Part shown: positions 33,419 to 34,075 of the stretch, one piece after another | How positions within the stretch are numbered: the first letter of the stretch is position 1 | Layout of the letters: the number at the start of each line of letters is the position of its first letter | Source: Escherichia phage FS2B | Sequence record: MW929182 | DNA length: 58,790 nucleotides | Reading direction: 5' to 3' (one strand) | The notes under the pieces: generated by a model | The model's database searches: none | The model's input: the letters and a program-made list of their open reading frames with translations, nothing else | What the model was told of the DNA's origin: nothing | Made by a program: the position numbers and the translations under genes

Positions 33419-34075
33419 TTAAATCTCCAATGTTTTCTTCAGAGCTGCCCACGAGATTGGGTAGATCTTAGCCATCTCTTCGTCTACAGATTTAGCAAAC
33501 ACTCGAACTTCATATTGAGCGTGAGAGGAGAGTCGCTGACGACACAACTCAAACCAGCCATACAAAGAACCGGTCCACACCCACTCAGTGATCATCCCCT
33601 GAGGAAGAACAAATCGAGCTTGCTCTGGTGCAATAAATTCAATCAACTTGTCATATGCTGCTAGAGAAGCTTCATATGCATCGTTAATCAGCATTAATGC
33701 TTCAGCTCGCTCTCCGTCGATGAGTTGAATCCCTGAACCTGCATGGAGGTCCGAAGGTCTCGCAAAAATCTCTTTAGGGATGAAGACTTCAACTGCTCCA
33801 TCTTTATACCGCCGGGACATTTCGTTCCACGAGAATCCAACCTGATGCTTGCCCAACTGTCTCGCAATTGCAATAGGTGCTTTGCATCGGAAACTGACTT
33901 GCGGGTGTCGGAATGGGGTAACATGCTTCTCTCTTGCGAGGAAGTTGATGAGACGTTCATCACGTTCATTTAAATCACCTTCACGGGTTACGCCAAAGGA
34001 AACTCGAGCTGCGTTTACTACGCTACGATCACTTCCCATAGCTTCGATTAATGTTGCTTGTAGTTGTTCATTCAT
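33419..34075 (-). CDS. thyX: ThyX-like flavin-dependent thymidylate synthase homolog with a divergent signature motif
   Basis: AARVSFG, H.TPFRHP and QLGKHQVGFSWNEMSRRY align to the ThyX core, but the canonical RHR is KHQ here. Confidence 0.6.
   Translation of the reverse strand: MNEQLQATLIEAMGSDRSVVNAARVSFGVTREGDLNERDERLINFLAREKHVTPFRHPQVSFRCKAPIAIARQLGKHQVGFSWNEMSRRYKDGAVEVFIPKEIFARPSDLHAGSGIQLIDGERAEALMLINDAYEASLAAYDKLIEFIAPEQARFVLPQGMITEWVWTGSLYGWFELCRQRLSSHAQYEVRVFAKSVDEEMAKIYPISWAALKKTLEI

What the first reader, a model, noticed from the sequence alone, without database searches (positions are those of the whole stretch)
33419..34075. ThyX-like protein with KHQ in place of the canonical RHR motif
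The protein aligns to the flavin-dependent thymidylate synthase core, but the signature reads QLGKHQVGFSWNEMSRRY where ThyX normally has RHR followed by a Ser about 8 residues later. Altered substrate-contacting residues could mean a different pyrimidine substrate or product, which would matter for DNA modification, or an inactive homolog. A thioredoxin-like gene and a dCTP deaminase-family gene are nearby.
Basis: partly seen in the sequence, partly recalled or inferred. Interest (0 to 1): 0.45.

Follow-up and report, generated by a model that had tools for sequence, protein, structure and literature searches.

The report
Ordinary phage ThyX, variant signature motif
This coliphage gene is a normal-looking flavin-dependent thymidylate synthase from a very large subfamily, found in hundreds of viruses and in bacterial chromosomes, that reads K-H-Q where textbook enzymes read R-H-R, so the odd motif does not point to an unusual DNA base.

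Summary
The 218-aa ORF at 33419-34075 (-) is a full-length ThyX (Pfam Thy1 9e-44; TIGR02170 128 bits against a cut-off of 87.9; model TM 0.81 to T. maritima ThyX). K76-H77-Q78 aligns with T. maritima R78-H79-R80, one extra residue precedes the Ser, and there is no RHR anywhere in the protein.

The window is a Kuravirus (98% identical to Escherichia phage SkaterBoy_Bas90), where the gene is already annotated as thyX. KHQ is not peculiar to this phage. It occurs in 119 of the 120 closest homologues, and K/R-H-(Q/K/T) dominates the 150 nearest 50%-identity cluster representatives. It is also found in at least 592 IMG/VR contigs and in syntenic housekeeping chromosomal loci of Nitrospinaceae, Chloroflexota, Spirochaetia and Poribacteria.

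Loss of the third Arg goes with gain of an Arg after the Ser (SGRY to SRRY), at the dUMP-phosphate pocket. According to the literature, the RHR motif mainly binds the FAD phosphates. The residues that read uracil and dUMP (R72, Q73, S87, R89, Y90, R154, R181) are conserved.

Most likely function: dUMP to dTMP, fed by the phage dCTP deaminase and followed by the phage dNMP kinase. One caveat remains: I found no biochemically tested K-type ThyX, and Gordonclarkvirinae are unexplainedly resistant to restriction-modification systems.

The parts
33419..34075 (-). thyX: flavin-dependent thymidylate synthase, 218 aa, 'K-type' subfamily
   Evidence: ORF listed. Pfam Thy1 9e-44 over residues 8-206. TIGR02170 thyX equivalog scores 128.4 bits against a cut-off of 87.9. 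phrog_85 thymidylate synthase 5e-63. AF2 model pLDDT 95.2 and Foldseek TM 0.81 to T. maritima ThyX. The protein is 99.5% identical to the annotated ThyX of phage Ptacy1479 and 98.6% identical to phiEco32 thyX/thy1.
33842..33850 (-). Codons for K76-H77-Q78, the position of the canonical R-H-R (T. maritima R78-H79-R80)
   Evidence: HMMER and MAFFT alignments and direct translation. KHQ is present in 119/120 closest homologues.
33806..33817 (-). Codons for S87-R88-R89-Y90 (T. maritima S88-G89-R90-Y91). R88 is the extra Arg that co-varies with loss of the third Arg of RHR
   Evidence: Among the aligned sequences, a non-Arg at the third motif position goes with SRRY, and RHR goes with S(G/A/Q)RY. 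Residue 89 lies at the nucleotide-phosphate pocket in PolB and PBCV-1 ThyX (PMC5003785; PMC3498832).
34091..34366 (-). Thioredoxin-fold gene immediately upstream of thyX (15-nt gap)
   Evidence: PF00085 2e-13 and phrog_22. The adjacency is not a general trait of K-type thyX: only 1 of 80 viral loci has a homologue.
36190..36723 (-). dCTP deaminase, the probable supplier of dUTP/dUMP for ThyX
   Evidence: PF22769 3.6e-34. TIGR02274 107.6 bits against a cut-off of 92.8. The best PDB matches are 4xjc, 2qxx and 2qlp (51-59 bits), ahead of E. coli Dcd 1xs1 (36 bits).
20822..21721 (-). Deoxynucleoside monophosphate kinase (probable dTMP to dTDP step). The true start may be internal
   Evidence: phrog_139 2.9e-54. 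Annotated as dNMP kinase in SkaterBoy_Bas90, Bas90_0027. The Pfam match is only weak (AAA_18, 0.002).

Best explanation
The gene encodes a working flavin-dependent thymidylate synthase (ThyX) that makes dTMP from dUMP using methylene-tetrahydrofolate, FAD and NAD(P)H.

It belongs to a large, old subfamily that I call K-type. In this subfamily the classical R-H-R-X7-S signature reads K/R-H-(Q/K/T...)-X8-S, and the residue after the Ser is Arg (SRRY instead of SGRY or SQRY). The first Arg, which contacts the flavin N1/O2 and the dUMP, is conservatively replaced by Lys. The third Arg is a ligand of the FAD and nucleotide phosphates. It is lost, and its charge is probably supplied by the new Arg at the dUMP-phosphate pocket of the neighbouring subunit.

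In the phage the inferred pathway is as follows. The phage dCTP deaminase turns dCTP into dUTP or dUMP. ThyX methylates dUMP to dTMP. The phage dNMP kinase and the host NDP kinase then take dTMP to dTTP. This would raise the dTTP supply for a 42% GC genome replicating in a 51% GC host.

Shown here: family membership, fold, conservation, subfamily distribution and covariation. Inferred: catalytic activity, the compensating role of R88, and the pathway.
For: Family and fold:
- Pfam, NCBIfam and PHROG hits all exceed their cut-offs.
- The model has pLDDT 95 and TM 0.81 to T. maritima ThyX.

Catalytic residues: H51, R72, Q73, N84, E85, S87, R89, Y90, E151, R154 and R181 align with T. maritima H53, R74, Q75, N85, E86, S88, R90, Y91, E144, R147 and R174. 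Most of them are invariant or at least 90% conserved in 40 K-type sequences that are 37-79% identical to the phage protein.

The variant belongs to a whole subfamily:
- KHQ occurs in 119/120 closest homologues.
- Of the 150 best 50%-cluster representatives plus the panel, nearly all have a non-Arg at the third position together with SRRY, whereas the RHR sequences have S(G/A/Q)RY.
- At least 592 IMG/VR contigs carry it.

Cellular housekeeping context: K-type thyX sits in conserved synteny in four Nitrospinaceae MAGs (RND efflux, IspH, MlaA), in five Chloroflexota/Dehalococcoidia MAGs (2-oxoacid dehydrogenase E3/E1a/E1b/E2), and in two Spirochaetia MAGs (next to dihydroorotate dehydrogenase).

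Viral context: the neighbours are family A DNA polymerase, primase-helicase, class II RNR and MazG. No hypermodification genes are present.

Literature:
- The RHR motif binds the FAD phosphates and ribityl, and only the first Arg contacts the flavin ring and dUMP (PMC6514825).
- R78 stabilises FADH- (PMC11940539).
- Residue 89 lies at the nucleotide phosphate (PMC5003785; PMC3498832).

Phage pathway genes: dCTP deaminase and dNMP kinase are present.
Against: - I could find no biochemically or genetically characterised K-type ThyX. The two PDB relatives whose alignments I saw (T. maritima, T. thermophilus) are RHR-type. I did not see the motifs of the other PDB hits.
- One paper lists T. maritima R80 among the residues that H-bond dUMP directly (PMC3498832), so the third position may not be purely a cofactor ligand.
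- Gordonclarkvirinae are reported as remarkably resistant to RM systems with no known modification pathway (PMC11990801).
- I could not check that the bacterial lineages carrying chromosomal K-type thyX lack thyA.
- The compensating role of R88 rests on clade-level covariation and homology, not on a structure of a K-type tetramer.
Confidence: 0.85

Rival explanations
1. Neofunctionalised ThyX. Under this reading the altered motif changes the substrate or product (for example release of 5-hydroxymethyl-dUMP, methylation of dCMP, or action on another phosphorylation state). The resulting non-canonical pyrimidine in Kuravirus DNA would then explain the group's resistance to restriction-modification systems.
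For: [quoted passage not shown] Two positions of the signature motif differ, and one source counts both as dUMP contacts (PMC3498832). A dCTP deaminase and an uncharacterised nucleotidyltransferase are conserved nearby. No K-type enzyme has been assayed, as far as I could find.
Against: - The same motif state occurs in syntenic housekeeping loci of several bacterial phyla, and in hundreds of marine T7-like and T4-like phages next to RNR and DNA polymerase.
- The Arg residues that read uracil O2/O4 and the phosphate, and the Ser and Tyr of the substrate loop, are invariant. A switch to cytosine would be expected to change them.
- Neither the window nor K-type neighbourhoods contain downstream hypermodification genes such as a 5-hmdU kinase, glycosyltransferase or aGPT-Pplase.
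- phiEco32 termini were mapped by restriction profiling and sub-cloning (PMC9965538).
- The phage carries a gene of a PHROG family annotated 'anti-restriction nuclease', which offers another possible route to RM resistance.
Confidence: 0.05
2. Same product, different cofactor handling. Under this reading the K-type subfamily still makes dTMP but has a remodelled flavin-phosphate site. This could mean weaker or exchangeable FAD binding, use of FMN, or a different reductant, possibly linked to the adjacent thioredoxin.
For: - The third Arg of RHR is described as an FAD phosphate/ribityl ligand (PMC6514825), and it is lost throughout the subfamily.
- The position aligned with T. maritima R165 (Mtb Arg190), another FAD-phosphate ligand, is Tyr here and is variable in K-type sequences.
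- Even the motif His is replaceable in some K-type members (RST, KSH, KYA).
- A thioredoxin gene abuts thyX here, and a glutaredoxin abuts thyX in Rheinheimera phage Barba4A.
Against: Thioredoxin adjacency is not general: 1 of 80 viral loci by homology, and 2 of 80 with a small CxxC ORF. Position 165 also varies (R/H/S) among canonical enzymes. There are no experimental data either way.
Confidence: 0.08
3. Inactive homologue or decaying gene: the motif changes reflect loss of function.
For: Two of the three residues of the historical signature motif differ.
Against: The ORF is full length. The AF2 model is very confident (pLDDT 95.2). The motif state is fixed in 119/120 homologues down to 54% identity. 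Eighteen columns, including all other active-site residues, are invariant across 40 diverse K-type sequences. The same type is chromosomal and syntenic in bacteria.
Confidence: 0.02

Closest known systems
Canonical ThyX / flavin-dependent thymidylate synthase (T. maritima TM0449, T. thermophilus, M. tuberculosis, H. pylori, PBCV-1 A674R; Pfam PF02511, TIGR02170)
   Same: Same fold (TM 0.81) and 33% identity. There is a full-length HMM match above curated cut-offs. The same His, Arg, Gln, Ser, Tyr and Glu active-site residues are present apart from the two motif positions.
   Different: R78 becomes K and R80 becomes Q. There is a one-residue insertion with an invariant Gly after the motif. G89 becomes R (SRRY), and E58 becomes R. 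The position of R165 is Tyr.
K-type ThyX of other phages: Roseophage SIO1 (KHK), Vibrio phage Thalassa (KHQ), Aeromonas phage PS (KHQ), Rheinheimera Barba phages (KHK), Salmonella phage 7-11, Yersinia PYps23T, T4-like cyanophage fragment L049 (KHQ), Streptomyces Genie2 (KYA), Bacillus Eoghan (KYV)
   Same: The same motif state (Lys first, non-Arg third, SRRY), and 40-63% identity to the window protein for the phages where I compared it.
   Different: They sit in other phage families and genome contexts. The third motif residue varies (Q/K/A/V), and some lack the one-residue insertion or carry a longer one.
Chromosomal K-type thyX of Nitrospinaceae, SAR202-type Chloroflexota/Dehalococcoidia, Spirochaetia, Poribacteria (MAGs)
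   Same: KHQ...SRRY and 41-47% identity to the phage protein.
   Different: These genes are embedded in conserved housekeeping synteny rather than in a phage replication module.
PolB, the ThyX-like UMP/dUMP C5-methylase of polyoxin biosynthesis (PDB 4P5A-C)
   Same: It is a ThyX-fold homologue known to have a changed physiological substrate. It matches the phage protein at 62 bits, E 4e-16.
   Different: The PolB paper attributes its specificity to loops and to Tyr99 of the substrate-recognition peptide. It lists Arg82, His83, Arg86, Glu94, Ser96, Arg98, Arg166, Arg193 and Gln206 as essential (PMC5003785). The phage protein is much closer to true ThyX (112 bits to T. thermophilus ThyX). I did not test it for the PolB-specific loops.
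ThyA-family dUMP/dCMP hydroxymethylases of phages with modified bases (SPO1, T4, ViI, M6)
   Same: They are also phage nucleotide-pool enzymes that place a one-carbon unit on C5 of a pyrimidine.
   Different: The fold and mechanism are unrelated (ThyA, Cys nucleophile). The literature I read describes no ThyX-family enzyme that feeds a DNA modification.

Membership tests
ThyX / Thy1 flavin-dependent thymidylate synthase (PF02511, TIGR02170) | Full-length match to the curated family HMMs above their cut-offs | tested here: met
   PF02511 scores 150 bits against a cut-off of 24.8, covering profile positions 1-190 of 191. The TIGR02170 equivalog scores 128.4 bits against a cut-off of 87.9.
ThyX / Thy1 flavin-dependent thymidylate synthase (PF02511, TIGR02170) | ThyX fold | tested here: met
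   AF2 model pLDDT 95.2, pTM 0.89. The top 50 Foldseek PDB hits are all T. maritima ThyX, with TM 0.77-0.82 and E about 1e-17 to 1e-18.
ThyX / Thy1 flavin-dependent thymidylate synthase (PF02511, TIGR02170) | Literal signature motif R-H-R-X7-S (Myllykallio 2002, as quoted in PMC2826268) | tested here: not met
   The protein reads K76-H77-Q78-X8-S87 and has no RHR elsewhere. The whole K-type subfamily fails the literal motif in the same way, including chromosomal bacterial genes. I therefore read this as the motif definition being too narrow, not as the protein lying outside the family. One published phylogeny filtered out sequences that deviate from the motif by more than two dissimilar residues.
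ThyX / Thy1 flavin-dependent thymidylate synthase (PF02511, TIGR02170) | Substrate-loop Ser, Arg and Tyr (T. maritima S88, R90, Y91), uracil-binding Arg (R174), and phosphate-binding Arg and Gln (R74, Q75, R147) | tested here: met
   Phage S87, R89, Y90, R181, R72, Q73 and R154 align with these residues. S87, R89, Y90, R154 and R181 are invariant, and R72 and Q73 are at least 90% conserved, in 40 K-type sequences.
ThyX / Thy1 flavin-dependent thymidylate synthase (PF02511, TIGR02170) | Folate/flavin-stacking His (T. maritima H53) | tested here: met
   Phage H51 aligns with H53 and is at least 90% conserved in the K-type alignment.
ThyX / Thy1 flavin-dependent thymidylate synthase (PF02511, TIGR02170) | Homotetramer with bound FAD; dUMP- and CH2H4folate-dependent dTMP formation with NAD(P)H; complementation of a thyA mutant | not testable with these tools
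   This needs protein biochemistry or genetics. I found no report for any K-type member in the searchable library.
PolB-type UMP C5-methylase (ThyX homologue with altered substrate) | PolB-specific Loop 1 and Loop 2 and the Tyr99 rotamer switch; a nucleoside-antibiotic gene cluster as context | tested here: not met
   Only the context was tested. It is a phage replication and nucleotide-metabolism module, not an antibiotic cluster. The sequence is closer to true ThyX (112 and 91 bits) than to PolB 4p5a (62 bits). The loops themselves were not examined residue by residue.
Phage DNA-base hypermodification pathway starting from a C5-modified pyrimidine nucleotide | Companion genes in the same genome: 5-hmdU DNA kinase, aGPT-Pplase or glycosyltransferase, dTTP/dCTP-excluding pyrophosphatase, base-specific polymerase adaptations | tested here: not met
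   None is annotated in the near-identical SkaterBoy_Bas90 record over the first 50 kb. None appears among the recurrent neighbours of K-type thyX in 80 viral loci. The uncharacterised nucleotidyltransferase at 36733-38103 remains unexplained.

The most novel reading that the evidence does not exclude
In Kuraviruses the K-type ThyX, perhaps together with the conserved dCTP deaminase and the uncharacterised 456-aa nucleotidyltransferase, may feed a non-canonical pyrimidine into phage DNA. That base would be the unknown reason why Gordonclarkvirinae shrug off restriction-modification systems. It would be the first ThyX-family enzyme shown to start a DNA-modification pathway.
Probability: 0.04. 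Interest if true: 0.75.

Novelty: already known. Interest (0 to 1): 0.18.

Why it matters
For this window it matters little. The gene is the already annotated thyX of phiEco32-like coliphages, and it most probably just boosts dTTP supply.

Two small points have wider use. First, the textbook RHRX7S 'ThyX motif' is not universal. A very large subfamily (phages of many families, plus chromosomal genes in Nitrospinaceae, Chloroflexota, Spirochaetia and Poribacteria) has K/R-H-non-Arg together with an Arg after the Ser. Motif-based filters will therefore discard real thymidylate synthases, and inhibitor design or mechanistic models built on RHR-type enzymes may not transfer to them.

Second, a conserved ThyX with a dNMP kinase, and a dCTP deaminase that by sequence sits nearer the M. 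tuberculosis (2qxx/2qlp) and 4xjc enzymes than E. coli Dcd, argues against the published suggestion that Gordonclarkvirinae replace thymidine by deoxyuridine. The cause of their restriction resistance therefore remains open.

Tried and rejected
- I tested whether the motif register was wrong. It is not: two independent alignments agree and the protein has no RHR.
- I tested whether KHQ is a singleton change. It is not.
- I tested whether K-type ThyX is confined to viruses. It is not: conserved chromosomal synteny exists in four bacterial lineages. The alphaproteobacterial isolates looked prophage-like by ORF pattern only (short ORFs, no shared synteny). The Prochlorococcus SAG contig (gp32) and the Nitrosopelagicus contig (prohead protease) are viral or prophage-like.
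- I tested whether thioredoxin adjacency signals a functional coupling. It does not generalise.
- I looked for an experimentally characterised phage ThyX of this type. Mycobacteriophage L5 gp48, which I recalled as characterised, turned out to be RHR-type.
- A homologue search with the cyanophage ThyX returned only unnamed metagenome proteins, and the cluster look-up returned no names. I therefore could not show that a cultured organism relies solely on a K-type ThyX.
- Paper searches for residue numbers and for Kuravirus DNA-modification data found nothing useful.
- Two directly relevant papers are not in the library: Ulmer 2008 on the 'extended ThyX motif', and Liu & Yang 2004 on 'distinctive ThyX motifs' in Trichodesmium.
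- The first attempt at a genome scan failed because the alignment was too diverse.

Full report
**What the window is**

A 7-kb stretch around the finding is 98.1% identical to Escherichia phage SkaterBoy_Bas90. It is 93-97% identical to many other phiEco32-like coliphages of the genus Kuravirus, subfamily Gordonclarkvirinae. In those records the gene is already annotated as thymidylate synthase or thyX. The window protein is 99.5% identical to 'thymidylate synthase ThyX' of phage Ptacy1479 and 98.6% identical to 'thyX/thy1' of phiEco32.

**Checking the observation**

The minus-strand ORF 33419-34075 encodes 218 aa. Translating 33806-33859(-) gives QLGKHQVGFSWNEMSRRY exactly. The family assignment rests on several results:
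- Pfam Thy1: E 9e-44, full length.
- TIGR02170 thyX equivalog: 128.4 bits against a cut-off of 87.9.
- phrog_85, thymidylate synthase.
- An AlphaFold2 model with mean pLDDT 95.2, which matches T. maritima ThyX structures with TM 0.81.

HMMER alignments to the solved T. maritima and T. thermophilus enzymes put phage K76-H77-Q78 opposite R78-H79-R80. They put S87-R88-R89-Y90 opposite S88-G89-R90-Y91, with one extra residue in between. A MAFFT panel gives the same register, and the protein contains no RHR anywhere.

**Is the motif change peculiar to this phage? No.**

- All but one of the 120 closest database homologues (54-91% identity) read KHQ, and the exception reads KSQ. They include proteins named from phages of Escherichia, Salmonella, Yersinia and Staphylococcus.
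- I aligned the 150 best representatives of 50%-identity clusters, from an exhaustive HMMER scan of 1.84 billion proteins, together with the 16-sequence panel. In that alignment 70 sequences read KHQ+SRR, 18 read KHK+SRR and 9 read RHT+SRR. Three K-type sequences carry an Arg at the third motif position (two KHR and one RHR). The other RHR rows are the nine canonical panel sequences.
- Named phages of unrelated families share it: Roseophage SIO1 (KHK), Vibrio phage Thalassa, Aeromonas phage PS, the Rheinheimera Barba phages (KHK), Streptomyces phage Genie2 (KYA) and Bacillus phage Eoghan (KYV). A T4-like cyanophage fragment also has it.
- Other phage ThyX proteins are canonical: phiYS40, RcWata, phiCB2047-B, NP1, Avazak, Myrna and mycobacteriophage L5 gp48.

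**Covariation**

In the panel, every sequence that lacks Arg at the third motif position has Arg directly after the Ser (SRRY). Every RHR sequence has Gly, Ala or Gln there (7 against 9). The larger alignment repeats the pattern with few exceptions. The sequences are related, so this counts as clade-level rather than independent evidence. Still, the two states are cleanly partitioned. The K-type also has an invariant Gly two residues after the motif and usually the one-residue insertion.

**What the changed residues do in solved enzymes (from the literature)**

- A review of the M. tuberculosis and H. pylori structures states that the RHR motif H-bonds the AMP phosphate, the ribityl and the FMN phosphate of FAD. 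It says only the first Arg also contacts the isoalloxazine ring and dUMP. The dUMP contacts it lists are Arg95 (the first Arg), Arg199, Arg87, Ser105 and Arg107 (PMC6514825).
- In reduced T. maritima ThyX, R78 points at flavin N1/C2=O (PMC11940539).
- In PolB complexes the nucleotide phosphate is held by Arg82, His83, Ser96', Ala97', Arg98' and Arg166'. Ala97' is the equivalent of T. maritima G89 (PMC5003785).
- In PBCV-1 ThyX the Gln-89 side chain can occupy the dUMP-phosphate pocket (PMC3498832).
- That same paper lists T. maritima R78, R80, S88 and R90 as direct dUMP H-bond partners, so the third Arg may touch both ligands.

Putting these together: the first position is conservatively Lys here. 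The third position is a phosphate ligand rather than a base reader. The new Arg (R88) sits where it could supply the lost charge. That last step is my inference.

**The residues that decide which base is bound are untouched**

Phage R72, Q73, N84, E85, S87, R89, Y90, E151, R154, R181 and H51 align with T. maritima R74, Q75, N85, E86, S88, R90, Y91, E144, R147, R174 and H53. S87, R89, Y90, E151, R154 and R181 are invariant in 40 K-type sequences only 37-79% identical to the phage protein. This pattern does not fit a switch to cytosine or an inactive protein.

**K-type ThyX is also a cellular housekeeping gene**

A scan of one genome per prokaryotic species found 50 loci. In four bacterial lineages the gene lies in conserved synteny, and in three of them I identified the flanking genes as housekeeping:
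- Nitrospinaceae (four MAGs): flanks 72-98% identical, comprising an RND efflux pair, IspH/LytB, MlaA and an ABC transporter.
- Chloroflexota/Dehalococcoidia (five MAGs): thyX follows the E3, E1-alpha, E1-beta and E2 genes of a 2-oxoacid dehydrogenase complex. Those flanks are as diverged as thyX itself (45-90%).
- Spirochaetia (two MAGs, one a complete 1.79-Mb chromosome): thyX lies next to dihydroorotate dehydrogenase.
- Poribacteria (two MAGs) are likewise syntenic, but I did not run their flanks against Pfam.

These are vertically inherited chromosomal genes. The simplest reading is that they make the cell's thymidylate. I could not verify that thyA is absent from these genomes.

**Viral neighbourhoods point the same way**

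Among 80 IMG/VR loci, the recurrent neighbours of K-type thyX are family A DNA polymerase (33), primase-helicase (31) and class II ribonucleotide reductase (27). MazG (15), endonuclease I (13), a cluster that looks like T7 RNA polymerase (10, not checked against Pfam) and 5'-3' exonuclease also recur. This is an ordinary replication and dNTP-supply module with no hypermodification enzymes. Thioredoxin next to thyX, as in this window, is not general (1 of 80).

**Pathway in this phage (inferred)**

The phage carries three relevant genes:
- A dCTP deaminase. Its best PDB matches are 4xjc and the M. tuberculosis enzyme (51-59 bits), ahead of E. coli Dcd (36 bits). From memory, those better matches are bifunctional dUMP-forming enzymes. 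The depositors' names do not say so.
- The ThyX itself.
- A dNMP kinase (phrog_139, 2.9e-54, at 20822-21721).

No dUTPase, thyA, RNR or DHFR is annotated in the part of the near-identical SkaterBoy record I read, its first 50 kb. The genome is about 42% GC, lower than its host's, so extra dTTP synthesis makes sense.

[quoted passage not shown] It speculates about deoxyuridine DNA, based on the dCTP deaminase and the adjacent nucleotidyltransferase (PMC11990801). A conserved ThyX and dNMP kinase argue against dU replacing dT. The breadth of the K-type argues against the motif being a marker of modification. phiEco32 termini were mapped by restriction profiling and sub-cloning (PMC9965538). The phage also has a small gene of a PHROG family annotated 'anti-restriction nuclease' at 33039-33272. 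Even so, I found no nucleoside analysis of Kuravirus DNA and no assay of any K-type ThyX. I therefore leave about 5% for a neofunctionalised enzyme.

**Verdict**

This is the known thyX of phiEco32-like phages, a member of a widespread ThyX subfamily whose signature differs from the textbook RHRX7S. I file it as ThyX on HMM, fold and active-site evidence. The literal historical motif is not met, by this protein or by the whole subfamily, chromosomal bacterial genes included.

Interest is low (0.18). The residual value is the note that the 'ThyX motif' is narrower than the family, plus a testable compensation hypothesis (Q78/R88).

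Noticed in passing
window 36733-38103 (-): A 456-aa 'nucleotidyltransferase' (phrog_12715, E 6e-245; only a weak Pfam PolyA_pol head-domain match, E 0.002) lies directly upstream of the dCTP deaminase. The BASEL-2 authors name this gene pair as a candidate for an unknown DNA modification in the RM-resistant Gordonclarkvirinae. Its function is unknown.
   Followed up: partly
window 36190-36723 (-): The phage dCTP deaminase matches PDB 4xjc and the M. tuberculosis enzyme (2qxx, 2qlp) at 51-59 bits. It matches E. coli Dcd (1xs1) at only 36 bits. From memory the better matches are bifunctional dCTP deaminase-dUTPases, so it may form dUMP directly. 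No dUTPase is annotated in the part of the SkaterBoy record I read (first 50 kb).
   Followed up: partly
window 33039-33272 (-): A 77-aa ORF two genes downstream of thyX matches phrog_4452 'anti-restriction nuclease' (E 1.5e-31). It is a possible alternative contributor to the group's resistance to restriction-modification systems.
   Followed up: no
window 32553-32876 (-): A 107-aa ORF consists only of the N-terminal domain Ia of NAD+-dependent DNA ligases (PF22745, E 8.6e-35). It has no adenylation or OB domain in the same ORF, yet related records annotate it simply as 'DNA ligase'.
   Followed up: no
window 35574-36189 (-): Three back-to-back small ORFs (35574-35783, 35783-35992, 35992-36189; 69, 69 and 65 aa) have similar length and similar C-terminal ends (...VIYY, ...KVHY, ...KVYY). 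They look like tandem paralogues of unknown function between the Dps-like gene and the dCTP deaminase.
   Followed up: no
window 21712-22104 (-) and 22768-23289 (-): A SLOG/YspA-like protein (PF10686, below Pfam's cut-off; phrog_289 'GTP-binding domain') and a Macro-domain protein (PF01661, 2e-10; phrog_335 'phosphatase') flank the phage sigma-factor gene. Both folds are linked to nucleotide and ADP-ribose signalling, so a counter-defence role is conceivable.
   Followed up: no
window 34616-35227 (-): A ferritin/Dps-like protein (PF00210, E 5e-7) is annotated 'DNA binding protein' in SkaterBoy. It lies between the thioredoxin gene and the small-ORF array.
   Followed up: no
proteins P0122 and P0135 (metagenomic K-type ThyX): These two long K-type ThyX representatives appear to carry an intein inserted exactly inside the signature motif. 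The sequence reads ...GFVVHN|SWNE.S.RY, with the typical intein C-terminal HN followed by Ser. Other long or multi-stretch hits may be similar.
   Followed up: no
alignment of 150 cluster representatives: Within the K-type subfamily even the central His of the motif can be replaced (RST, KSH, KST, KYA and KYV variants), while SRRY stays. The 'RHR' tripeptide as a whole is poorly constrained in this subfamily.
   Followed up: partly
L005 (Rheinheimera phage Barba4A) 1-128 and 207-875: A glutaredoxin gene sits immediately upstream of a K-type thyX, mirroring the thioredoxin-thyX pair in the window. The pairing did not recur in 80 metagenomic viral loci.
   Followed up: yes
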